A DNA stretch of 64,000 nt from a virus (IMGVR_UViG_3300020360_000085:32001-96000); one strand, 5' to 3'; shown: positions 28,718-53,415, counted from the first letter of the stretch. The notes: generated by a model from the letters alone, not told the origin. A program made the numbers and translations.

Positions 28718-28721
28718 ACAA

Positions 28722-30008
28722 CTATTTATCGTTTTTGGCTACAAAGTCGTCAATATATTTTTCAATGTCTTTAAGGTATTCTACCTTAGTATGTATTCTG
28801 TAATAAGTGTAATAATTTTGTGTAAGTATCGAACTCATTTCTTTAAGTGTGTTACACCATTTATCATGACTCCAATTACTTAATTCTAAAAATAAACTGT
28901 TTAATTTTTCTGTTTTTTCATCAGGATTATTTACGGTATCATAACTTTCGTCCCACCACTTATCAAATGTTTTAAATCCATAACTTTTTAATACTTTTAA
29001 ACTACCTGATGTACCTGCTATAACAAATGGATTTAAATGTTTTAAAGATCTATTAATTTTTTCTGTAAGTAATATACCTCTTTCTTGAGGTTCAAACTCT
29101 GTTTCATAAACAAACTCGCAGTATCCTTTATTATAAAGTTTATAGTCTATAAAATGACTCCATAATGTGTTTATATTTTGTGGCTCCCCATTTGGATTTT
29201 CTATTTTGTTATGCCAAGGTAAAGTTTTCTTAAAAGTATAATTATTATTTAAATTAAAGTCGTTTACATCCTGTTCAGTGCTATTAAAAGATATAATATT
29301 TTCTTCTAATAAATTATTTTTATAAACAAATTCTGCAAAATCACATCTGTGCTTTCTAGGTCTGCTGTTAGTAGCAATTAATTTATATGGTCTATGCTGT
29401 GGGTCTTGTAAATTTTTTACATTTTCATGATACTTTTCCATATCATTTTCATAAAATTCTACACCTAAAGATAAGTTACATGCCACTGTATCTATATCAA
29501 AAACTTTAGGCGGGTTATAATTATTTACGTTTAATACCATACTTTTAGTATTTAAATTATATTTTTTTATAGTATTATCTAATACGTTATAAAAAATTCT
29601 GCATGTATCATTTTTAGTATTTTGCAAAGGATATGTGTGTTCATATACATTATCTATAATAATTAAACATTTATTATTTTGATTATCTATAACTACATCG
29701 TTAGGTATGTCAAAAACATCTTGTTCTGTTAAAATTTTTGTATTGAATATTCTTGGTGCAACTAAAATTGGAAAAGCATATACATTTGTATCTTTATGCT
29801 CATATATTTCTATTTTGTTAGTGGGTAATTTATATAAAGGTCTGTCTTGTAAATTAAAAATTTTTACATAATCATTGTTTTTAATGATCTTAAGAATTTG
29901 ATCTTCTGTATATCCATAAGGACATAATACTTTTTGACCTTTGAGACTTAGATGCTTTTTAGGGTAAAGTTTAATTTTTGGTGTGTGTTTAGGTATATCG
30001 TATTCCAT
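28722..30008 (-). CDS. Hypothetical protein, putative glycosyltransferase-like family (paralog of 55501..56667)
   Basis: LTEK..R...PFVIAG..G.L..LK.YGFKTFDKWWDESYD motif shared with the paralog; GT function is inference. Confidence 0.6.
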   Translation of the reverse strand: MEYDIPKHTPKIKLYPKKHLSLKGQKVLCPYGYTEDQILKIIKNNDYVKIFNLQDRPLYKLPTNKIEIYEHKDTNVYAFPILVAPRIFNTKILTEQDVFDIPNDVVIDNQNNKCLIIIDNVYEHTYPLQNTKNDTCRIFYNVLDNTIKKYNLNTKSMVLNVNNYNPPKVFDIDTVACNLSLGVEFYENDMEKYHENVKNLQDPQHRPYKLIATNSRPRKHRCDFAEFVYKNNLLEENIISFNSTEQDVNDFNLNNNYTFKKTLPWHNKIENPNGEPQNINTLWSHFIDYKLYNKGYCEFVYETEFEPQERGILLTEKINRSLKHLNPFVIAGTSGSLKVLKSYGFKTFDKWWDESYDTVNNPDEKTEKLNSLFLELSNWSHDKWCNTLKEMSSILTQNYYTYYRIHTKVEYLKDIEKYIDDFVAKNDK

Positions 30009-31755: not shown

Positions 31756-31779
31756 ACAGTTATTTATATAAGTGAGGGT

Positions 31780-41423: not shown

Positions 41424-41446
41424 ACTACTATTTATCGTTTTTTGTA

Positions 41447-42607
41447 TTAAAATGCTTTAAGAATGATAGTGTTATCATTTATTCTGCCGTTCATTTTAAT
41501 TGGTGTTGTTTTTAATTCATCAAACGATTTAGCAAATTTTGTTTTGGCTTTGCCTGTCCAATTAGTAATTTGCTCTTTAGGTTTACGCAAAGTTTTTTGT
41601 AAACTACTTTTAGTACAAAAATCTTGTATAGTAGTACCTTTTATCATTAATCCTGCACTAGGTCTAGAAAGTCCTCTTGGGTCTTTACTTAAAGCATGAT
41701 ATACACCTATCTTTCTAGTTTTAGTATTATACACCCATAACTCATTACAATTTACTATATCTGTAGGATGGATACTTGCTACTCCAAGTTCACTATCATT
41801 AATTTGATATTTTAATTTTTTAACGATTGTTTCTTTACTTCTTGCTCTTGGCTTACGAGACTTTCTTGTTGACTTTTTAGTTTCTATAATTGTATCACAT
41901 GCAGTATTAATTTTTTCAAAAAATGCTACAAAGTCTTTTCTCATTTTAGCAGACATATGACTATATGCTTCTTTAATTTGATCATCCTTCCATTCCTGAA
42001 CTTCTAATGCTTCATTATATTCATTTTCAAATTCTTCTTTTATAATTTTAGCATGATTGGCTTTTACTTCAGGTTGATAAACGAGCATGTCCTCGTAAGG
42101 TTTAAATTCTTTAAGTGTTAATTTTTCATCAGTTAATGAGTCTAATTTATATTCCCATTCTGCACACAAGGCCTCTACTTGTTGTTTCATTCTTTCCTGT
42201 ATGCTAATTACCTTTTTAGGTTTTTCTTCTGCTTTCTTTTGTTTTTCTTTAATAAATTCTTTACCACGTTTAAGCCATTCTTCTTTCCTTTTTTCATAAT
42301 GGCCTTTCGTACCCTCAGGCATATATCCTAATTTATATTCTACAAATAATGCAATACCAGAAGAAGCAAATGCCCAATCAGGGTTATTTAAAATAATTTT
42401 TATTTCTTCTTTAGTCCAACCTGATTTTTCTTTTACCCAATGCTTGGCCGCATTTACCATTTTCTTTCTGGATATTTCTGTTCTAACAAAATATTCACAA
42501 CTATTAAATGCTTGTATTTGTTTTTCAGGGTCAGTAATTTCCCGTAGAGTCTTCCAATCAGGCTCTTTTGTAATGTATATGCTTCTTTCTTTCTTTTTTC
42601 GTGGCAT
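41447..42607 (-). CDS. Conserved hypothetical basic protein
   Basis: Likely start MPRKKK (42607); VYNTKTRK, KTLRKP motifs. Confidence 0.7.
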   Translation of the reverse strand: MPRKKKERSIYITKEPDWKTLREITDPEKQIQAFNSCEYFVRTEISRKKMVNAAKHWVKEKSGWTKEEIKIILNNPDWAFASSGIALFVEYKLGYMPEGTKGHYEKRKEEWLKRGKEFIKEKQKKAEEKPKKVISIQERMKQQVEALCAEWEYKLDSLTDEKLTLKEFKPYEDMLVYQPEVKANHAKIIKEEFENEYNEALEVQEWKDDQIKEAYSHMSAKMRKDFVAFFEKINTACDTIIETKKSTRKSRKPRARSKETIVKKLKYQINDSELGVASIHPTDIVNCNELWVYNTKTRKIGVYHALSKDPRGLSRPSAGLMIKGTTIQDFCTKSSLQKTLRKPKEQITNWTGKAKTKFAKSFDELKTTPIKMNGRINDNTIILKAF

Positions 42608-42614
42608 CTGTGTC

Positions 42615-42845
42615 TCAGTCTTCAAACAGTTGTTCTGGATCTGGCGAATCATACATTAATTGTATAACTGTAGGCCAATTTTTAAATCCTAATATACTGT
42701 TTTTATCTTTTAAAGCATTTTTTTGCTTAAAGAACTGAGTAATACTTATCATTCCAGTAAATTTTCCTGCTCTTTCACCTGCTTTATACATAAAATATGA
42801 GTTTGCAAGTATAAAGATTAGAAAAAATAAAAACATTGAATCCAT
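42615..42845 (-). CDS. Small membrane protein
   Basis: N-terminal TM helix; SD GGAGG; sigma70 promoter upstream. Confidence 0.7.
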   Translation of the reverse strand: MDSMFLFFLIFILANSYFMYKAGERAGKFTGMISITQFFKQKNALKDKNSILGFKNWPTVIQLMYDSPDPEQLFED

Positions 42846-42864: not shown

Positions 42865-42892
42865 AGTATAACATCTATTTTATTTTTGTCAA
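42865..42892 (-). promoter_or_regulatory. Sigma70-type promoter
   Basis: TTGACA-N16-TATACT. Confidence 0.75.
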
Positions 42893-42900
42893 TAAGATTA

Positions 42901-43857
42901 TTATTTACCTTTTGAGAATCTTTTATCTATATTATGAGGTAGATCGTTTTCCAAAATATTTTTCCAGGATTGTATTGTTTTGTCTAATCCATCACTAAGT
43001 TCAACTTTTGGAAACCAACCAAGTCTGGTTGTAATTTTATGATTTGTGCTGTTAAGTAAATATATTTCACCAGGACGTTTTGGTTTTGTGTTCCAATTAA
43101 CATGACCGTCCCAGCCTATTTTATCTGCAATAAGTTTAACATAATCCTTTATTTTAATTGCATTGTCAGGACCTATACAAAATATTTCTCCTGCACATTT
43201 GTCTGGATTGCTAATTACTGTTTCCCAAGCATCTAACAAATCATCAATGTAAATAAAGTTTCTATATGGCTCGCCATATCCTAAATTTATCTCTTTTGGA
43301 TTTTTTAACATTTGTGTTATAATTTGTTCTGTTACAAAAAAGTCATTGTCCTTTCTACCATAAGCATTTGTTTGACGAATTGCTGTAAATGGTAAACCAT
43401 AACTTCTGTGGGCATACTCTAAATATTTTTCACATCCGTATTTTGCAACGGCATAGGGGGCATTAGGATTTGGAGGTGTTGCTTCATTAAATGCAATTAT
43501 TCCTTCCTCTTTTCCATCTCTTATTAAATCACTTATTGGTTGCCAACCATAAACTTCCATTGTACTTGCAAACACAAAGTTTTTTAAGTTTTTAAGTTTA
43601 GAGGCTATTTCGATTAAATTAACTGTACCTGTATAATTTATATCACTAAAAGTGATTTGCTCATAAAAACTTTGCTCTACTTCAGTTCTAGCCGCCAAGT
43701 GTACAATTATTTCAGGATCAAATGTAGAAATTTGCATAGCAACTTTGGCATGGTCTCTTAAATCTTCTGTCAAAAATCCTAGTTCATGCTTGTCCTTTAA
43801 TCTTTGTACCATATGCTGACCTATAAAACCGTCTGCTCCTGTTATAAATATTCTCAT
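42901..43857 (-). CDS. NAD-dependent epimerase/dehydratase (extended SDR, nucleotide-sugar)
   Basis: TGADGFIG, HLAA, STMEVYG, YAVAK (YxxxK), NAYG. Confidence 0.9.
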   Translation of the reverse strand: MRIFITGADGFIGQHMVQRLKDKHELGFLTEDLRDHAKVAMQISTFDPEIIVHLAARTEVEQSFYEQITFSDINYTGTVNLIEIASKLKNLKNFVFASTMEVYGWQPISDLIRDGKEEGIIAFNEATPPNPNAPYAVAKYGCEKYLEYAHRSYGLPFTAIRQTNAYGRKDNDFFVTEQIITQMLKNPKEINLGYGEPYRNFIYIDDLLDAWETVISNPDKCAGEIFCIGPDNAIKIKDYVKLIADKIGWDGHVNWNTKPKRPGEIYLLNSTNHKITTRLGWFPKVELSDGLDKTIQSWKNILENDLPHNIDKRFSKGK

Positions 43858-44396
43858 GTTAAATCCTCTGTTTTTGCAAATCCTGTTACTTGTAAAGTAT
43901 ATCTGTTAATATTACTAACATTACTAAGACAATGTGCCTTGTCTTTTAAAATGTATGTGTAATCACCTTTTTTATAATCTGTAAACGAATAATCTTCTAT
44001 TTCTAAAAAATGTCCCATAATTTTATCTTGTAGGAAAACGTTTACTCTTACAGGCTCTTTATTTTCTATATCCCAATTATTTTGTTTTGCTAAATCGTAT
44101 AATCTAAAAAATTTATCTGTATGTGGTCCTGTAAATCTTCCAGGCTTTATACAATTTACAGTAACCATGGAATGGTTTACAAATGGAAACATTTCTTTAA
44201 TTTTATGAGCCCATCTAGGTGCAAACTCATCATATGTTTGTAAAACTATAGGACCGTCTTGAGGATAATCAGGAACAGGCATATTATTATCTTTCCAATA
44301 TCCTCCAGACCAAATACTATTTGTTTCCTCTACGAATTTTGTTATATAAAGTTCTCTTTCATCTAACCAGGAAAGATCTATATGTCCTCTAATCAT
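43854..44396 (-). CDS. Fe(II)/2OG oxygenase, AspH-like cupin
   Basis: PGRFTGPHTD (HxD), AHCLSN, R; paralog of the adjacent gene. Confidence 0.7.
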   Translation of the reverse strand: MIRGHIDLSWLDERELYITKFVEETNSIWSGGYWKDNNMPVPDYPQDGPIVLQTYDEFAPRWAHKIKEMFPFVNHSMVTVNCIKPGRFTGPHTDKFFRLYDLAKQNNWDIENKEPVRVNVFLQDKIMGHFLEIEDYSFTDYKKGDYTYILKDKAHCLSNVSNINRYTLQVTGFAKTEDLT

Positions 44397-44883
44397 TTTT
44401 TAATACTGTAACCTGTGCTGAATAAAAAGGTTCATCTCCCATGTTACCTGCTAAATGCCAATCATCTATTCCAAATTTTACCCAGTCTCCTCTTTTCCAT
44501 TTTACAAAAGGCTGATCATGTACTTCGTAATAATGCCCACGTTTCCAGTCCTCTAAAAAAATTAAGTAACGATAACTTTCGCCCTCACCAAACTCCTCTC
44601 TTAATTTAAAATGTTTATCTACATGATGTGGAATTGTTTGTCCTGGACAAATATTAATTACACTTACAACATGATGATCAAAATCTTGAGGTATCTTCAT
44701 TGCTAAATCATGTACCCATTGTGGAGAATCATCAAACATTTGCCATATACTACTATTATGCTTTGTGTAGTATTGCTCTATTTTATCGTACTGTTGATAA
44801 CATTGAAAATAATCATCAAAGTTTAACAAACTCATTTGTTCATTAGTTATACCACAGTTATCAATATGCCCGTATTTAATCAC
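44389..44883 (-). CDS. Fe(II)/2OG oxygenase, AspH-like cupin
   Basis: PGQTIPHHVD (HxD), WHLAGN. Confidence 0.7.
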   Translation of the reverse strand: MIKYGHIDNCGITNEQMSLLNFDDYFQCYQQYDKIEQYYTKHNSSIWQMFDDSPQWVHDLAMKIPQDFDHHVVSVINICPGQTIPHHVDKHFKLREEFGEGESYRYLIFLEDWKRGHYYEVHDQPFVKWKRGDWVKFGIDDWHLAGNMGDEPFYSAQVTVLKND

Positions 44884-45937
44884 AATAACTCTCTAAAGTG
44901 CCTTTACGTCTAAGATCCAAAGTAGCACAATGTATGCCTCCAGACAACGTCATAGAGTGCCTAAACTGAACAGGTACACTATCTATACCGTATTTGTCTA
45001 GTTCTCGCATCAGAGGCTCTTGTGCTGAGTCTAATATAACAGTATTCTCATTTACACTTAATAAATTCATACCAATGTAAGGCGAACATGGTGCAATATA
45101 TCCTTGCTCTGAAAGTTTACTACCTTGTACTACGCAATCGTCAAACCATATCTTATCCCACTTTTTAAACATTTCTGGACAATTTTCAGGTGTAACTCTG
45201 CTACTGTTCATTAAAACTAAGCCTGGTCTTAGTGGTACAATAGTACTATCAAAATGTGCAAAACTATAAAGTTCACTATAATGTAATTTATATCCCATAG
45301 GTTCAAGTAGTCTTTTTAACCATTTGTAACCTTTCATGTTACCTGAATTACTTACTTGATATAATAAATCTTTTCCAACTCTAACAATATTAGGTGCATC
45401 AAAACATATTTCATGATCTAATAAAGTTGCTACATCTAGATTTTCAAACTGATACATTTCATCATGTAACTTTGGTTTAGGTGCTTCTAGCCATAAGGCA
45501 CCATCTTCAAATGCCTCATACATTATATCTTCATATAGATGTTTTGCTTCAAAATATCTTGCTCTCACAGGAGTAGGTGTTTCTATTAGCATATCGCCTA
45601 AAGGTAATATTAAATCACGTGGGCACCAACTATACCAGCCTTTTGTGTTCCAACCTTGGCCAATATCATAATTAATATTTTCCCAATCAACAATTTTAGG
45701 ACGGTGTACTATTACACCCATGTCTGCTAAAACTTTTGCTAGTCCATCTGCATCTTCATTCGCTTCATCTATAACCCATTGAGGATAAACTCCCTCTAAT
45801 GGTAAAATTTCATCTTCTGGATATGGTGCGTAACTAAAACTTCTTGCTGAAATGTCAGTTGCTATTCTGCTATGGTGGGCATGTCCAACGATTATTTCCT
45901 CTAGTTGGTCCCAATCGTTGTGGGAATTAACTATCAT
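44876..45937 (-). CDS. Amidinotransferase (AGAT/StrB1 family)
   Basis: VNSHNDWDQLEEIIVG, CPRD, FDAPN, HFDST, GGIHCATLD (Asp/His/Cys triad); own late promoter 45965-45972 and SD AGGAG. Confidence 0.9.
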   Translation of the reverse strand: MIVNSHNDWDQLEEIIVGHAHHSRIATDISARSFSYAPYPEDEILPLEGVYPQWVIDEANEDADGLAKVLADMGVIVHRPKIVDWENINYDIGQGWNTKGWYSWCPRDLILPLGDMLIETPTPVRARYFEAKHLYEDIMYEAFEDGALWLEAPKPKLHDEMYQFENLDVATLLDHEICFDAPNIVRVGKDLLYQVSNSGNMKGYKWLKRLLEPMGYKLHYSELYSFAHFDSTIVPLRPGLVLMNSSRVTPENCPEMFKKWDKIWFDDCVVQGSKLSEQGYIAPCSPYIGMNLLSVNENTVILDSAQEPLMRELDKYGIDSVPVQFRHSMTLSGGIHCATLDLRRKGTLESYCD

Positions 45938-45991
45938 TATGTCTCCTGTAAAATGTGTTTCTACTATTTATAAGTATTAAAAATTTTATTG

Positions 45992-46864
45992 TTAGCAATC
46001 TGATAGCCACTCACTAACACACACTCTGTAGTTACCACTAACTCCTCTATTAAATTCGTTATGTCGTATGTCATCTCCCAAGCCAAAAATAACTGTATCA
46101 CACCAAACAAGATCATGCTCATGACATACACTTTGATAAAGTTCTGTATATTTTTCCCAATTATAATCTGGTCCAAAATTTTTCATATATTCTACACCTA
46201 ATGCCATACTATAATTGTTTGCCATATTTACTTCATTTAGCATACTAACTCCGTCATCTACATAATCTTTAGTAAAGCGGATACCTACTCTATGATTTTC
46301 TAAAGTAAAAAATGGCTTGCTCAAACTACATGTAACTTCTTTTATACATGTAAAAGAATCTAAGTTTATATGAACATGCTTTGCAATCCCCCAATATGCT
46401 AAATCCAAACACACAGGTATATTATGTGCTTCACAAATACGCATTATATGTTCAAAGTCAGGATGGATACACCCATAATCACTAAATGGTGCACTTATAA
46501 GAAATGCATGTAGATCAGGTCCATTTAATATACTTTCAAAATGATGTGGATAATCTACATAATTAAATTCAACATGTTTACCTAAACAGGCATGATATTG
46601 AAAGTCGCCTTTTAAAACATTTATTTGTCTGTCTTTACAATGTCTTAAAATAAAATTATCAAATGCTTGGCTTGTGCCTTGTGTATAATCAGCAAAAGTA
46701 AAATTATCTAAACCTGTAAGGCTTTTTGTACTACTAAAATTGATCCAATTACGCCAAACTTTTGCATATTCTTCTATAGATATTTCTTTAGGCACACCTA
46801 TACCATTATGGAAATCTAGTATTTCCTTATTTCTTATAGGTCTTGCTCCTCTAACTGCCGGCAT
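45992..46864 (-). CDS. PLP-dependent enzyme (fold type I, aminotransferase-like)
   Basis: LDLAY (PLP Asp), SLSK (Schiff-base Lys), RVG; late promoter TATAAATA 5 nt before ATG. Confidence 0.7.
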   Translation of the reverse strand: MPAVRGARPIRNKEILDFHNGIGVPKEISIEEYAKVWRNWINFSSTKSLTGLDNFTFADYTQGTSQAFDNFILRHCKDRQINVLKGDFQYHACLGKHVEFNYVDYPHHFESILNGPDLHAFLISAPFSDYGCIHPDFEHIMRICEAHNIPVCLDLAYWGIAKHVHINLDSFTCIKEVTCSLSKPFFTLENHRVGIRFTKDYVDDGVSMLNEVNMANNYSMALGVEYMKNFGPDYNWEKYTELYQSVCHEHDLVWCDTVIFGLGDDIRHNEFNRGVSGNYRVCVSEWLSDC

Positions 46865-46927
46865 GTGACTATTTATAGTGATATATTTTAAATGAATATA
46901 AATTTAGAAGGTGATAAATAGTATATT

Positions 46928-47998
46928 ATGCCAAGATTAAGTTTATGGAATCCAGTTAAAGGAAATGATTACAACTTCATAGATAGAGTTGTGGGCGAAC
47001 ATATCTTTGCAGGAGGTACCGGTGTTCATGTACACAAATATTTAGGAGTACATAGTGAGGACGATGGTAAAGATCCTACAAGACCTAATCCAAATGCAGG
47101 AACAAATGATGAAGTTTTTATACAAGATCTACTATTTCTAGAAAATAGAGATAGAAAGTATGATAAAAATATTTACGAATTAAGGGGTCAATATAACTTA
47201 GGCGATAACGATGCATTTGATCTTACACAATTTGGAATGTTTTTAGCAAACGATACGTTATTTTTTAACTTTCATATAGAAAGTATGGTAGAAGGATTAG
47301 GCAGAAGACTTATGCCTGGAGACGTATTAGAGATTCCACATTTAAGAGATGATTTATTATTAGGTAGCGACGATGCTGTAAATAGATTTTTTGTTGTTAC
47401 TGATGCAAGTAGGCCTGCAGAAGGATATGATCCTAGATGGTGGCCTCACTTGTGGAGAACTAAAGTAGGTCCTATAAGTGATTCACAAGAATACAGAGAT
47501 ATACTTGGTACTGGCGAAGAAGAAACTGATTTAAGAAATTTAATTAGCACTTATGCAAATGAAATAAATATTAATGACAAAATATTGGAACAAGCAGAAA
47601 GAGATGTTCCATATGATCCTCAATACAGAGATACAACACACTTGTATTTTGATGAGGAAGTGCCTGATAAACCTACTGTTGGATTAAATTTTGGTGGGAG
47701 TGACGGCCAGCCTATTAATGGATTAAGTATTGTTGGAAGTGGAGAAACATTCCCAACTAGTGGTACGTCTGATGGTGACTTTTTCCTACGTACTGACTTT
47801 AGTCCAAATAGATTATTTAAAAAGTCAGGTTCACGTTGGCTAAATGTAGGCACAGATGAAAGAGGTACTTGGTCAGCCGCAAATAGAATATTATCAACAT
47901 TTATTAACAATGATAATACCACAACAACAAGCGATGGCGAAGCAATGGAAGAAAGAGTAAATTTAAGTAAGGTTGTAAAACCACAAACGGATAATTAA
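46928..47998 (+). CDS. Neck/head-closure protein (gp14-like)
   Basis: FDLTQFGMFLANDTLFF...LGRRLMPGDVLE; late promoter 46913-46920. Confidence 0.7.
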   Translation: MPRLSLWNPVKGNDYNFIDRVVGEHIFAGGTGVHVHKYLGVHSEDDGKDPTRPNPNAGTNDEVFIQDLLFLENRDRKYDKNIYELRGQYNLGDNDAFDLTQFGMFLANDTLFFNFHIESMVEGLGRRLMPGDVLEIPHLRDDLLLGSDDAVNRFFVVTDASRPAEGYDPRWWPHLWRTKVGPISDSQEYRDILGTGEEETDLRNLISTYANEININDKILEQAERDVPYDPQYRDTTHLYFDEEVPDKPTVGLNFGGSDGQPINGLSIVGSGETFPTSGTSDGDFFLRTDFSPNRLFKKSGSRWLNVGTDERGTWSAANRILSTFINNDNTTTTSDGEAMEERVNLSKVVKPQTDN

Positions 47999-50764: not shown

Positions 50765-51346
50765 TTATTTAAATGTGGTTGCTTTCATGCTACAAACAAT
50801 TCTATTTTGCTTATTGTCAGAATTTACAGCACTATGCCAACTAGTTGGGCCTGTTCTAAATAAAAATAAACTTCCAGGATTTCCTCCAACAATTTTATAA
50901 GGTTTATCTGCATCTGGATTATCATATATTTCTGTGCCAAAAACATATTCAGGATTACAATAAATTACACCTCTTACAAAAGGATTATTTGGAGTTTCTT
51001 CGTCTCCATAATAGTCATTATGCATTTGTAATTTTTGATTTTTACTTATCATATTTTCTACACCATAAAAATATTTACAATTGATGTCCCAAACATTATT
51101 AATTGCTTCAACAATATCTTTATTTTTTTGTCTAATTTTTTCTATAATATCCAGATAAGCAGATACATGTTGGGGACCATCATTATTAAATTCTTTTTGA
51201 GATAAATTTTCCTGTAACTTAATATAATTATCAAATATATTTTTATTATCTAAACCTGTAATAAAATTTTCTATTACAATATATTCAAAAGGATATGTGT
51301 TTAAATTTTCCCTACAAATTTTATCAATATTTTGTACTTGAACCAT
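50765..51346 (-). CDS. Putative 2OG-Fe(II) oxygenase
   Basis: MHND (HxD), SWHS, RIV; PFEYIVIENF N-terminus typical of the family. Confidence 0.65.
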   Translation of the reverse strand: MVQVQNIDKICRENLNTYPFEYIVIENFITGLDNKNIFDNYIKLQENLSQKEFNNDGPQHVSAYLDIIEKIRQKNKDIVEAINNVWDINCKYFYGVENMISKNQKLQMHNDYYGDEETPNNPFVRGVIYCNPEYVFGTEIYDNPDADKPYKIVGGNPGSLFLFRTGPTSWHSAVNSDNKQNRIVCSMKATTFK

Positions 51347-53415
51347 TATTTAGAAGTTTTCCTTTCAACACCGTCCCATTCTCCTGCAGGCATAGGTTGT
51401 TTTATTCTTTGTGCATATAAATTTGCAAGAGTATTATTCCAGTCATGTTCTTTTATTACTTCTATTTGATGAGCACATTCGGCCCATTCCCTATTTTGAT
51501 AAGCATCTACCATTCTGTTTATTACTCTAACCTCTTTTGTGTCTTTTAAAATTGTATAAATTGTTACAGGTGCAGTTTGGCCTTTTACTGCAATTTTATC
51601 TAACATTACAAGTCCTTGTGGTGAAACTATTTGTTTTAATGTATGTTCTGTAAACATAAAAAATACACCATACTCTTTGGTTTGTGCTTCTAAACGAGCC
51701 GCTAAATTTACACTATCTCCTAAAACTGTATAATCAAAACGTTGATTAGAGCCCATGTTACCTACTACGGCATCACCTGTGTTTATTCCTATACCAACAC
51801 CCAACTCCATTAATCCATCTTCTTTAAGTTCTTTATTAAGTTTTTTAAGTTCTACTTCCATTTCTTGTGCTGTCTCAATAGCCAATTGGGCATGATTATC
51901 TACATCAAGTGGAGCATTCCATATTGCCATTAAGGCATCTCCTATGTATTTGTCTATTGTGCCTTCTTTTTGCATAACAAGATCTGTCATAGGTGTCATA
52001 TATCTGTTAATTAATTTTCCTAAACCTTCAGGATCTGTTTTAAATTGTTCTGATATTGGAGTGAATCCACGAATATCTGAAAACAAATATGTCATTGTTC
52101 TTGTATCTCCGCCTAAACGTAATAGACTTGGATCTTTTTGTAACTTTTTAACCATTGCAGGTGCAAGATAATGTTCGAATTGTTTTTTAATTTGTTCACG
52201 TAATTTATATTGTTTGTAAAAGTTATTAAATGCCGCCTGTGTAAAAACTAAAAATCCACTTAGTACAGGGAAAGTAGCATCTAATAAAACTAAATCGCTT
52301 GTATATTTGTAAACACTATAATAGGATATTCCCCCTAATACTGCAAGTGATATAGGTGCAGTCCAAAGTAATGGCAGTTTATAAACTGCTAAAGCAATTA
52401 GAATCATAGTCAAGAAAGCAACGACCAACTCTGTGACAGCACTTAATTGGCTTCTTGTTATGTTACTGCCGTCTATAATGTTTTGTATCATATGAGCCTG
52501 TATATGTTGTGGATAAAGATTACCACGTGGTGTAGGTACAGGGTTTGCAACACCCTCAGCAGTAACACCTATGACTACCCATTTACCCATTAAATCTGGA
52601 ATACTATCAGCACCTTCATATTCTATTTCTTCAAAAGAATTATTAAAACGTATATAAGCAGTACCATCTGGTTGTGTAACTACAGGAGGAAAAGGAGGAA
52701 TAGCCACTTCTTGTATTCCTATTTCAGATGTTTTTATCATATAACTGGGTTTACCTGTGTGTACCCTTAACATCTCTACTGCAAAACTAGGATAAATTTT
52801 GTCTTCTACAGTAATAGCAAGAGGGTATGTTCTAGTTTGATTATCTGGTTGAGGGGCAGATGCTAAAACACCTTTACCATTACTTACAACTTCCAATATG
52901 GGAATATTAGTAACTAAATTAGGCCATTTAAGTAAATAATCTTTTGCTGGTACAGGACCTATTGTACCTGTACCTATATGAGGACCTGTACTTTTTATTC
53001 CTTTAACACTTGGCGTTTGACTTAAAACATTTACATTTACAGGATTTTTTCTAGCACCTGGAATGTTAATAACATTTTGTTGTAATATTCCTGCAAAACT
53101 TTCGTCTCCCTGAAATCTATCTGCTTCAGGAAACATAATTGTCCAACCTACGGGACCACTATTTTTCATAGCAACGTCTACTACAAGTTGTGCATAATAT
53201 TGCCTTGGAAATGGATACTGTCCGTATTTTGCTAAACTTTTTTCGCCAATGTTTATTAATACAACATTATCACTTTGTTTTACTTCATCTAATTGTTGAT
53301 AACTGTCAAAAACTTGACTTCTAAGACTTTGTAATGGTGTAGGATCTACTATTCTTAAGCCAAGTAAAAGTGCAATAGATAGGACCACTGCATAACCACT
53401 ATATAACCATTTCAT
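51346..53415 (-). CDS. CHASE2-domain membrane adenylate cyclase (class III)
   Basis: TM + CHASE2 (YPFPRQYYA, ILFPEADR-like, IGVTAEG) + 3 TM + cyclase FSDIRGFT, KYIGDALMA, DYTVLGDSVNLAARLE. Confidence 0.92.
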   Translation of the reverse strand: MKWLYSGYAVVLSIALLLGLRIVDPTPLQSLRSQVFDSYQQLDEVKQSDNVVLINIGEKSLAKYGQYPFPRQYYAQLVVDVAMKNSGPVGWTIMFPEADRFQGDESFAGILQQNVINIPGARKNPVNVNVLSQTPSVKGIKSTGPHIGTGTIGPVPAKDYLLKWPNLVTNIPILEVVSNGKGVLASAPQPDNQTRTYPLAITVEDKIYPSFAVEMLRVHTGKPSYMIKTSEIGIQEVAIPPFPPVVTQPDGTAYIRFNNSFEEIEYEGADSIPDLMGKWVVIGVTAEGVANPVPTPRGNLYPQHIQAHMIQNIIDGSNITRSQLSAVTELVVAFLTMILIALAVYKLPLLWTAPISLAVLGGISYYSVYKYTSDLVLLDATFPVLSGFLVFTQAAFNNFYKQYKLREQIKKQFEHYLAPAMVKKLQKDPSLLRLGGDTRTMTYLFSDIRGFTPISEQFKTDPEGLGKLINRYMTPMTDLVMQKEGTIDKYIGDALMAIWNAPLDVDNHAQLAIETAQEMEVELKKLNKELKEDGLMELGVGIGINTGDAVVGNMGSNQRFDYTVLGDSVNLAARLEAQTKEYGVFFMFTEHTLKQIVSPQGLVMLDKIAVKGQTAPVTIYTILKDTKEVRVINRMVDAYQNREWAECAHQIEVIKEHDWNNTLANLYAQRIKQPMPAGEWDGVERKTSK

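What the first reader, a model, noticed from the sequence alone, without database searches (positions are those of the whole stretch)
42901..46877. Late-expressed biosynthetic cluster: PLP enzyme, amidinotransferase, two Fe/2OG oxygenases, nucleotide-sugar epimerase
Seen: five co-oriented enzymes, the last four overlapping, with late promoters TATAAATA at 46870-46877 and 45965-45972; the amidinotransferase triad is intact. Established: aminotransferase then amidinotransferase is the logic of streptidine synthesis (StsC/StrB1). Amidinotransferase plus 2OG oxygenase or PLP enzymes occur in guanidino-metabolite pathways (CyrA, SxtG; VioC/VioD). Inference: a phage pathway making a guanidino/amidino sugar or hydroxylated guanidino amino acid. 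Late promoters favour virion or host-surface decoration over DNA hypermodification, which would be needed during replication. I know of no described phage pathway with this composition.
Basis: partly seen in the sequence, partly recalled or inferred. Interest (0 to 1): 0.82.

Follow-up and report, generated by a model that had tools for sequence, protein, structure and literature searches.

The report
Phage arginine-amidinotransferase biosynthetic operon
An uncultivated marine jumbo phage carries a tightly conserved, late-type five-gene operon built around a streptomycin-type amidinotransferase, which probably makes an unknown guanidino-bearing sugar-like compound late in infection.

Summary
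Five co-oriented minus-strand genes lie at 42901-46864. The last four overlap by 4-8 nt, and TATAAATA sits before genes 1 and 2.

All five enzyme calls were verified, although Pfam sees only the SDR:
- Amidinotransferase: matches StrB1 over its full length (E 2e-81), with the Asp/His/Cys triad intact.
- 290-aa protein: a compact class-I aminotransferase fold with its PLP motifs conserved.
- Two small paralogues: Fe(II)/2OG-oxygenase folds with an invariant HxD...H.
- SDR: a nucleotide-sugar type with a dehydratase-like TxE/YxxxK site.

The order PLP, amidinotransferase, one to three oxygenases, SDR is kept in about 80 marine viral contigs, always between neck and tail genes. The amidinotransferase and SDR are more conserved than the neighbouring structural genes.

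The promoter core in this genome is ATAAATA. It also precedes the genes for terminase, tail tube, tail sheath and gp13.

Amidinotransferase-oxygenase pairs recur among glycosyltransferase genes in a cyanophage. Campylobacter phages pair the amidinotransferase with radical SAM and glycosyltransferase genes instead.

Best reading (about 0.4): ketone, then amine, then guanidine chemistry on a nucleotide-sugar-like substrate. The product and its target are unknown.

The streptidine analogy holds for chemical logic only; the aminotransferase is not StsC-type.

Unchecked first-reader notes of this scan describe similar operons on eight other genomes.

The parts
46870..46877 (-). Late-type promoter motif TATAAATA (genome core ATAAATA), 5 nt before the ATG of the PLP gene. 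With T4-like spacing this would give a leaderless mRNA.
   Evidence: The same core with the same spacing precedes the terminase, gp13 and virion-protein genes.
45992..46864 (-). Compact (290 aa) class-I aminotransferase-fold PLP enzyme
   Evidence: No Pfam hit. AlphaFold2 pLDDT 92. Foldseek E about 1e-11 to AlaAT, C-S lyases, CobD, HisC, Plu4 and GntC. VIA Z 20-22.5 over 270-282 of 290 residues. Invariant D154-x-A-Y157, S-x-S-K183 and R192. Atlas neighbours carry PF00155 and are 82-100% viral.
45965..45972 (-). Second late-type motif, 27 nt before the amidinotransferase ATG, followed by an AGGAG ribosome-binding site
44876..45937 (-). StrB1-type L-arginine amidinotransferase (353 aa)
   Evidence: PDB phmmer: StrB1 (1bwd) E 2.3e-81 over residues 2-351; SxtG 4e-51; AGAT 3e-49; HsvA 1e-48. 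Triad D180/H228/C337 plus D108 conserved. Median 88% identity across 78 viral loci.
44389..44883 (-). Fe(II)/2OG-oxygenase-fold protein A (164 aa). It has HxD...H but lacks the usual Arg/Lys ten residues after the second His.
   Evidence: pLDDT 92.5. The VIA wide search returns only 2OG oxygenases at the top: PiuC Z 14.6, PHD/P4H Z 12-13. Invariant H87, D89, H143. 9 of 36 family members hit Pfam Asp_Arg_Hydrox, best E 3e-5.
43854..44396 (-). Fe(II)/2OG-oxygenase-fold protein B (180 aa), a paralogue of A that has Arg at His+10
   Evidence: 29% identity to A, E 3e-16. Alignment. Copy number varies from 1 to 3 in relatives.
42901..43857 (-). Extended-SDR nucleotide-sugar epimerase/dehydratase (318 aa) with a dehydratase-like T-M-E and YxxxK active site
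   Evidence: Pfam GDP_Man_Dehyd 1e-41 and Epimerase 1e-40. NCBIfam LegB and RmlB. PDB 4zrm 1e-31 and RmlB-type 1e-21 to 1e-23. ASTMEVYG and PYAVAK invariant in 67 relatives. Median 89% identity.

Best explanation
This is a real, conserved, late-type phage operon for small-molecule biosynthesis, centred on a StrB1-type L-arginine amidinotransferase. Shown: the identity of the five enzyme classes, their translational coupling, their conserved order in a marine jumbo-phage clade, and a promoter motif shared with structural genes. Inferred mechanism: the dehydratase-like SDR makes a keto group on a nucleotide-activated sugar or sugar-like substrate. The compact PLP enzyme transaminates it to an amine. 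The amidinotransferase moves the amidino group of arginine onto that amine, giving a guanidino group. The one to three Fe(II)/2OG oxygenases hydroxylate the substrate or product. Further inference: the cationic product is used late in infection, most likely as a building block for glycan-type decoration of the virion or the infected cell's envelope. This follows the streptidine logic (ketone, amine, guanidine), but with non-orthologous oxidation and transamination enzymes.
For: Enzyme identities. Coupling and promoters. Synteny: PLP, amidinotransferase, 1-3 oxygenases, SDR lie between the virion protein gene and the p401/gp13 genes in about 80 IMG/VR loci, and on 113-kb and 273-kb contigs. Purifying selection: the amidinotransferase (median 88%) and SDR (89%) are more conserved than gp13 (79%), the virion protein (80%) and gp15 (72%). 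Recurrence at long range: the PLP enzyme, amidinotransferase and oxygenases are still together at 61-63% amidinotransferase identity (L084, L086). A homologous oxygenase abuts the amidinotransferase in cyanophage S-SCSM2R (hhalign probability 97.7%), inside a block of five glycosyltransferases and a DegT-type enzyme. A second, remote amidinotransferase-oxygenase pair there sits beside KdsA/KdsB and glycosyltransferase genes. Campylobacter phages place their amidinotransferase among radical SAM genes, two GT-A genes and, in phage WX1, a short 'aminotransferase class I and II' gene. Sugar leaning: the SDR is a full-length nucleotide-sugar type with a TxE site, and the best-scoring solved relative of the amidinotransferase acts on an aminocyclitol phosphate. 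Fusions of amidinotransferase homologues to TauD and HalD oxygenases show that the amidinotransferase-oxygenase coupling is general. Contigs from three metatranscriptome libraries cover parts of the operon and the neighbouring structural genes, and one spans the PLP/amidinotransferase junction (weak evidence).
Against: No substrate or product is known. The PLP enzyme is class-I type, like amino-acid enzymes, and not a DegT-type sugar aminotransferase. No glycosyltransferase or sugar nucleotidyltransferase is recognisable in the operon. Pfam finds none above threshold in the 250-kb record, which is only about 66% complete. The SDR is absent from the held stretches of the most distant relatives (L084, S-SCSM2R). 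Other amidinotransferase fusions (NRPS A-T, ornithine decarboxylase, aaRS-like) point to amino-acid or amine acceptors elsewhere in the family. Oxygenase A lacks the canonical 2OG-binding Arg. Late timing is inferred from motif association only. The RNA evidence consists of contigs that could come from contaminating DNA.
Confidence: 0.4

Rival explanations
1. The operon makes a free guanidino amino acid or guanidino polyamine, such as a hydroxylated homoarginine-type compound or an amidinated polyamine. The oxygenases hydroxylate an amino acid, the SDR oxidises the alcohol, the PLP enzyme transaminates and the amidinotransferase amidinates. The product could act as a DNA-packaging counter-ion, a nitrogen store or an inhibitor.
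For: The PLP enzyme's 50 best structural matches are all class-I-fold PLP proteins, nearly all amino-acid enzymes, including the arginine-tailoring Plu4, RohP, MppP, MppQ and GntC. Amidinotransferase homologues are fused to TauD, HalD, ornithine/arginine decarboxylase, NRPS A-T and aaRS-like domains. Solved relatives HsvA, AGAT and SxtG act on amines or amino acids. The oxygenase fold is closest to PiuC and to prolyl hydroxylases.
Against: The SDR is a nucleotide-sugar-type extended SDR with its C-terminal substrate domain and TxE site, and it is as conserved as the amidinotransferase. The best-scoring solved relative of the amidinotransferase is StrB1, by a wide margin over AGAT and HsvA. In other phages the amidinotransferase-oxygenase pairs sit among glycosyltransferase genes.
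Confidence: 0.25
2. The operon hypermodifies phage DNA after replication. It would add a guanidino group to an amino-bearing modified base, for example an aminoalkyl pyrimidine or an aminomethyl-7-deazaguanine.
For: An unchecked first-reader note reports dpdA, folE, queD and queE in this genome. Campylobacter phages that carry amidinotransferase modules are reported to have 7-deazaguanine DNA (my own knowledge). PLP and radical SAM enzymes take part in known thymidine hypermodification (my own knowledge), and radical SAM genes are frequent accessories of this operon. Late expression does not exclude DNA modification (Mu mom; my own knowledge).
Against: The operon has no DNA-directed transferase, kinase or glycosylase. 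The held record has no ThyA-type or ThyX-type gene that could supply hydroxymethyl pyrimidines (record about 66% complete). The operon lies in the neck/tail module, far from the reported deazaguanine genes. A nucleotide-sugar SDR has no obvious role.
Confidence: 0.1
3. The enzymes modify virion proteins directly. The prolyl/aspartyl-hydroxylase-like oxygenases would hydroxylate residues, and the amidinotransferase would convert lysine side chains to homoarginine.
For: The oxygenase fold is nearest to protein hydroxylases (PHD, P4H, AspH). The operon sits between structural genes. A remote amidinotransferase homologue and a 2OG oxygenase were detected in the CsCl-purified virion proteome of S-SCSM2R (PMC12801897; homology).
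Against: No amidinotransferase is known to act on proteins (my own knowledge). A PLP aminotransferase-fold enzyme and a nucleotide-sugar SDR have no role in this scheme. The authors of the proteome study themselves suggest carry-over of abundant proteins.
Confidence: 0.08
4. There is no common pathway. The genes are unrelated auxiliary metabolic genes that happen to lie together, with the amidinotransferase simply making guanidinoacetate.
For: Ocean virome surveys file such genes under creatine or arginine metabolism (PMC11360552; PMC8226683). Variable genes are inserted between operon members in relatives.
Against: There are 4-8-nt overlaps between four of the genes. The order is fixed over about 80 loci, while neighbouring accessory genes come and go. 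The amidinotransferase-oxygenase adjacency recurs in a separate amidinotransferase lineage (the cyanophage). StrB1 scores far above AGAT.
Confidence: 0.07

Closest known systems
StrB1, L-arginine:inosamine-phosphate amidinotransferase of Streptomyces griseus (PDB 1bwd)
   Same: Full-length, nearly gap-free alignment (E 2.3e-81). Same length class (353 vs 348 aa). The Asp/His/Cys triad and the CPRD and HxD motifs are conserved.
   Different: In the tree the phage protein belongs to a separate, well-supported clade of marine phage-like sequences (13 rows, support 100/97), apart from the Streptomyces/Pseudomonas clade. Relations between the major clades are unresolved. The acceptor is unknown. 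None of the other streptidine genes is present.
Streptidine branch of streptomycin biosynthesis (inositol dehydrogenase, StsC aminotransferase, kinase, StrB1)
   Same: The chemical logic of ketone, then amine, then guanidine, with arginine as amidino donor.
   Different: The oxidation enzyme here is a nucleotide-sugar extended SDR. The aminotransferase is class-I fold, not DegT/StsC type. There is no kinase or phosphatase. One to three Fe/2OG oxygenases are added.
Radical SAM / 'glycine amidinotransferase' module of Campylobacter phages CP220 and CPt10 (Timms et al. 2010, PMC2853527)
   Same: A phage-borne amidinotransferase homologue (25-30% identity) in an interchangeable accessory module with glycosyltransferase-like genes and, in phage WX1, a short 'aminotransferase class I and II' gene. 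Function also unknown.
   Different: The Campylobacter modules are dominated by five radical SAM genes. They have no detectable homologue of the oxygenases and no SDR. Their amidinotransferases sit on long, separate branches.
Amidinotransferase-oxygenase pairs of cyanomyovirus S-SCSM2R (ORF308/309 and ORF266/267; PMC12801897)
   Same: ORF309 is 37% identical to the amidinotransferase, and the ORF308 oxygenase is homologous to the window's oxygenases. Both pairs lie in carbohydrate gene contexts.
   Different: No class-I PLP enzyme or SDR is adjacent. A DegT-type enzyme and many glycosyltransferases are there instead. The authors interpreted the genes as 'antibiotic synthesis genes' without testing.
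SxtG and CyrA/AGAT amidinotransferases of toxin and creatine pathways
   Same: Same fold and catalytic mechanism (E 4e-51 and 3e-49).
   Different: Much weaker matches than StrB1, and these enzymes are longer (383-423 aa). No PKS or NRPS partners are present here.

Membership tests
Amidinotransferase family (AGAT/StrB1, pentein fold) | Full-length sequence homology to characterised members | tested here: met
   StrB1 E 2.3e-81 over residues 2-351; SxtG, AGAT and HsvA E 1e-48 to 4e-51
Amidinotransferase family (AGAT/StrB1, pentein fold) | Catalytic Cys-His-Asp triad | tested here: met
   C337, H228 and D180 align with StrB1 C332, H227 and D179. They are invariant in 7 diverse relatives, and GGIHC is present in 78 of 80 loci.
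Amidinotransferase family (AGAT/StrB1, pentein fold) | Arginine-dependent amidino transfer to a defined acceptor | not testable with these tools
   Needs an enzyme assay
Fe(II)/2-oxoglutarate oxygenases | Double-stranded beta-helix fold | tested here: met
   Model pLDDT 92.5. The 50 listed matches (Z 9.7-14.6) are almost all Fe(II)/2OG oxygenases or close homologues. Foldseek alone gave a mix of cupins and 2OG enzymes.
Fe(II)/2-oxoglutarate oxygenases | HxD/E...H metal-binding triad | tested here: met
   H87, D89 and H143 are invariant in 36 sequences covering both paralogues
Fe(II)/2-oxoglutarate oxygenases | Basic residue about 10 positions after the distal His that binds the 2OG C5 carboxylate | tested here: inconclusive
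   Protein B and its relatives have Arg at His+10. Protein A and its relatives have Phe, Leu or Tyr there. An invariant R105 might substitute.
Fe(II)/2-oxoglutarate oxygenases | Pfam family match above threshold | tested here: not met
   No hit for either window protein. 9 of 36 relatives hit Asp_Arg_Hydrox, best E 3.4e-5.
Class I/II aminotransferase-fold PLP enzymes (PF00155) | Fold type I, class-I architecture | tested here: met
   Z 20-22.5 over 270-282 of 290 residues; Foldseek E about 1e-11
Class I/II aminotransferase-fold PLP enzymes (PF00155) | Schiff-base Lys (SxSK), pyridine-N Asp (DxAY) and phosphate-binding Arg | tested here: met
   K183, D154/Y157 and R192 are invariant in 33 sequences. 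SLSKPF is present in 70 of 71 loci and D[LI]AYWG in all 71. Assignment of roles follows the AspAT motifs from my own knowledge.
Class I/II aminotransferase-fold PLP enzymes (PF00155) | Usual size (about 350-400 aa) and Pfam match | tested here: not met
   The protein has 290 aa. Targets align from about their residue 20-60 onwards. No Pfam hit; NCBIfam valine-pyruvate transaminase at only E 0.007.
DegT/DnrJ/EryC1/StsC sugar aminotransferases | Homology to the DegT family | tested here: not met
   None among the 50 best Foldseek or VIA matches; no Pfam PF01041 hit
Extended SDR nucleotide-sugar epimerases/dehydratases | GxxGxxG, catalytic Thr/Ser and YxxxK, with family models above threshold | tested here: met
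   GADGFIG, T in ASTMEVYG, and YAVAK. Pfam scores of 144 and 140 bits against cut-offs of 27 and 21.
NDP-hexose 4,6-dehydratases (RmlB/GMD type) | Active-site Thr-Asp/Ser-Glu with Glu as the C5 base | tested here: inconclusive
   T-M-E is invariant in 67 relatives. Glu is present, but Met stands in place of Asp or Ser. NCBIfam LegB and RmlB models match far below their cut-offs. The best solved match is annotated as an epimerase.
T4-type late promoter | TATAAATA-like box close upstream of late (structural) genes | tested here: met
   Core ATAAATA: 54 of 101 copies lie upstream of same-strand starts, including TerL, tail tube, tail sheath and gp13. Both operon sites fit.
T4-type late promoter | Late timing and dependence on a gp55-type sigma factor | not tested
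   No time-course data are available, and gp55/gp33 homologues were not searched for

The most novel reading that the evidence does not exclude
The operon is the core of a phage-specific guanidinylation system. It would make a previously unknown arginine-derived guanidino deoxysugar or cyclitol, which divergent phage glycosyltransferase-like proteins attach to the virion or the infected cell's envelope. This would be a cationic glycan decoration, with analogous but only partly homologous modules in marine jumbo phages, T4-like cyanophages and Campylobacter phages.
Probability: 0.3. Interest if true: 0.8.

Novelty: new variant of a known kind. Interest (0 to 1): 0.6.

Why it matters
Amidinotransferases are known from creatine, streptomycin and cyanotoxin pathways. 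No phage-encoded one has a known substrate. Here one sits in an operon that is abundant in ocean viromes, with hundreds of homologues in Tara, JGI and ENA data. It is more conserved than the surrounding neck and tail genes. Analogous modules occur in two cultured and tractable phage groups. Finding the product would show what a guanidinium group does for a phage: adsorption, envelope remodelling, DNA or virion chemistry. It would also correct current virome annotations that file these genes under creatine or antibiotic synthesis.

Tried and rejected
- DNA search of the phage collection with the whole operon found no match. A protein search with the PLP enzyme also found none.
- Pfam, PHROGs and NCBIfam were uninformative for four of the five proteins.
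- Foldseek alone could not separate generic cupins from 2OG oxygenases for the small protein. The wide VIA search could.
- The small proteins are not RmlC- or FdtA-type sugar cupins by fold ranking, so I dropped my initial idea of a ketoisomerase or 3,5-epimerase.
- The proteins just upstream of the Campylobacter phage amidinotransferases show no similarity to the oxygenase profile. The WX1 'aminotransferase' shares only the Lys motif region with the PLP profile, at probability 0.2.
- The 455-461-aa accessory protein that precedes the PLP gene in most relatives has only a weak Atlas lead to GT10 (0.81). It has no Pfam hit, and a profile search of PDB sequences found nothing. It remains unassigned.
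- A search for DpdA with PF01702 found nothing even in CP220, where DpdA is expected, so that test is uninformative.
- ThyA, ThyX, NTP_transferase and GT2 searches of the phage's own record were negative or sub-threshold, in a record that is about 66% complete.
- Bacterial amidinotransferase homologues at 35-44% identity do not carry the partner genes, so no characterised bacterial cluster could be used to name the product.
- The metatranscriptome data are contigs only. They give presence in RNA libraries but no start, strand or level.

Full report
**What is there**

The window is part of a 250.5-kb, 33.5% GC, single-contig IMG/VR viral record. The record is linear and CheckV estimates it to be about 66% complete. 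Its structural proteins resemble those of jumbo myophages. The virion protein at 46928-47998 is 43-46% identical to proteins of Atu_ph07 and PA5oct.

Five genes lie on the minus strand between that gene and the p401/gp13/dNMP-kinase/tail-sheath genes:
- 45992-46864 (290 aa)
- 44876-45937 (353 aa)
- 44389-44883 (164 aa)
- 43854-44396 (180 aa)
- 42901-43857 (318 aa)

The last four overlap by 8, 8 and 4 nt. TATAAATA stands 5 nt before the first ATG. It also stands 27 nt before the second ATG, followed there by AGGAG.

**Enzyme identities**

Pfam recognises only the last protein, as Epimerase/GDP_Man_Dehyd at E 1e-41. The other four needed other methods.

- **353-aa protein.** It matches the solved StrB1 inosamine-phosphate amidinotransferase over its whole length (E 2.3e-81). 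This is far better than SxtG, AGAT or HsvA. Asp180, His228 and Cys337 align with the StrB1 triad and are invariant in relatives.
- **290-aa protein.** It folds with pLDDT 92. It aligns over 270-282 residues to class-I aminotransferase-fold enzymes at Z 20-22.5. The DxAY, SxSK and Arg motifs are invariant. It is about 60-100 residues shorter than typical members. No DegT-type sugar aminotransferase is among its best matches.
- **164- and 180-aa proteins.** They are paralogues. The 164-aa protein was modelled (pLDDT 92.5). In a search of 48,161 PDB representatives its best matches are almost exclusively Fe(II)/2OG oxygenases: PiuC Z 14.6, and PHD/P4H Z 12-13. HxD...H is invariant across both paralogues. 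Nine of 36 family members reach Pfam Asp_Arg_Hydrox. Protein B has Arg at His+10; protein A does not.
- **SDR.** It has GxxGxxG and YxxxK, plus an invariant T-M-E. The Glu is the hallmark of 4,6-dehydratase or decarboxylase chemistry (established SDR knowledge). The subtype is not settled, because the best solved match is an annotated epimerase.

**Promoters and expression**

The exact T4 octamer is under-represented in the window. The core ATAAATA, however, occurs 101 times in the genome, and 54 copies lie 7-60 nt upstream of a same-strand start. G is the usual preceding base.

Genes behind this motif include terminase large subunit, tail tube, tail sheath, gp13 and several virion proteins. 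The two operon sites are therefore late-type by association. Actual timing is untested.

Contigs from three metatranscriptome libraries cover parts of the operon and the flanking structural genes, and one crosses the PLP/amidinotransferase junction. Contigs cannot exclude DNA carry-over.

**Conservation**

The PLP protein has hundreds of homologues in marine metagenomes. In 80 IMG/VR loci, plus contigs of 113 kb and 273 kb, the order is kept. It runs PLP, amidinotransferase, one to three oxygenases, SDR, always between the virion-protein gene and p401/gp13.

The amidinotransferase and SDR (median identity 88-89%) are more conserved than gp13, gp15 and the virion protein (72-80%).

Accessory genes come and go around the core:
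- a 455-aa unknown protein upstream of the PLP gene
- a SPASM radical SAM
- a B12-binding radical SAM
- a 200-aa unknown protein

At 61-63% amidinotransferase identity the PLP enzyme, amidinotransferase and oxygenases are still together, now with more radical SAM genes. Bacterial homologues at 35-44% identity lack these partners.

**Other phages**

- **Cyanomyovirus S-SCSM2R.** It has a 37%-identical amidinotransferase directly after an oxygenase homologous to those here, inside a block of glycosyltransferases. It also has a second, remote amidinotransferase-oxygenase pair beside KdsA/KdsB. According to its authors, that remote amidinotransferase and a nearby oxygenase were found in the purified-virion proteome (PMC12801897).
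- **Campylobacter phages CP220, CPt10 and WX1.** Their amidinotransferase homologues lie among radical SAM and GT-A genes. This module was noticed in 2010 but never explained.

In a maximum-likelihood tree the window's enzyme sits in a well-supported clade of marine phage-like sequences. The cyanophage and Campylobacter enzymes lie elsewhere. The association with similar partner classes has therefore arisen, or been kept, in separate lineages. Fusions of amidinotransferase homologues to TauD and HalD oxygenases point the same way.

**Interpretation**

The enzyme set fits ketone, then amine, then guanidine chemistry, with added hydroxylation. That is the streptidine logic carried out by different oxidation and transamination enzymes.

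I lean towards a nucleotide-sugar-like substrate. The reasons are the SDR type, the closeness to StrB1 and the carbohydrate context in other phages. The class-I PLP enzyme and the family's fusion partners keep a free amino-acid or polyamine product as a serious rival.

DNA hypermodification and protein modification are less likely but not excluded. Late expression alone does not argue against DNA modification. The product and its target are unknown.

The literature searches found no characterised phage pathway of this composition. Unchecked first-reader notes of this scan describe similar operons on eight other genomes.

**Verdict**

This is a real and conserved operon. Its chemistry is plausible but unproven, and its biological role is open.

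Noticed in passing
whole genome G000; in the window e.g. 46865-46876, 41424-41435, 31756-31767, 28718-28729: At 21 of the 54 promoter-associated genes the arrangement is exactly ATAAATA, 5 nt, ATG, with no ribosome-binding site. With T4-like spacing, transcription would start at the A of the ATG. That suggests systematic leaderless late mRNAs.
   Followed up: partly
window 42865-42892 (minus strand): A near-consensus sigma-70-type promoter (TTGACA, 16 nt, TG-TATACT; 11 of 12 matches) lies just after the SDR stop and before the 76-aa gene. The downstream neck genes may therefore also be read from a host-type promoter.
   Followed up: no
relatives L003 6647-8014, L026 4710-6095 and 52 other loci; G000 246107-247456: A 455-461-aa protein of unknown fold overlaps the start of the PLP gene in most relatives but is missing from this window. 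A distant 449-aa paralogue lies elsewhere in this genome beside a B12 radical SAM, SufE, an IscA-like protein and ClpP. There is only a weak GT10-like lead.
   Followed up: partly
L085, L086, L087, L088 (genome contigs): Contigs filed under Synechococcus lacustris, a Verrucomicrobiales MAG, a Puniceispirillum MAG and a 240-kb 'Gammaproteobacteria' contig carry amidinotransferases of this phage-like clade. L085 holds the whole operon, L086 the PLP enzyme, amidinotransferase and oxygenase, and L087 the amidinotransferase with an oxygenase 4 kb away. They are probably phage DNA binned with bacteria, or host hints.
   Followed up: no
P0254, P0257, P0268, P0284, P0340, P0389: Amidinotransferase homologues occur fused to TauD, a class II aaRS-like domain, an FAD oxidoreductase, an NRPS A-T module, HalD halogenase and ornithine/arginine decarboxylase domains.
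   Followed up: partly
L002 1156-3180, L003 574-2643; window 51346-53415: A CHASE2 adenylate/guanylate cyclase gene keeps its place a few kb from the operon in distant relatives, and in this genome it is preceded by the same late-type motif.
   Followed up: no
L045 3576-4784: One relative carries an isocitrate lyase gene (Pfam ICL, E 1e-93) inserted between the virion-protein gene and the operon.
   Followed up: no
window 41447-42652: The 401-aa protein between the operon and gp13 occupies the position of T4 wac (fibritin). It is the most variable gene of the region, with median identity 52%.
   Followed up: no
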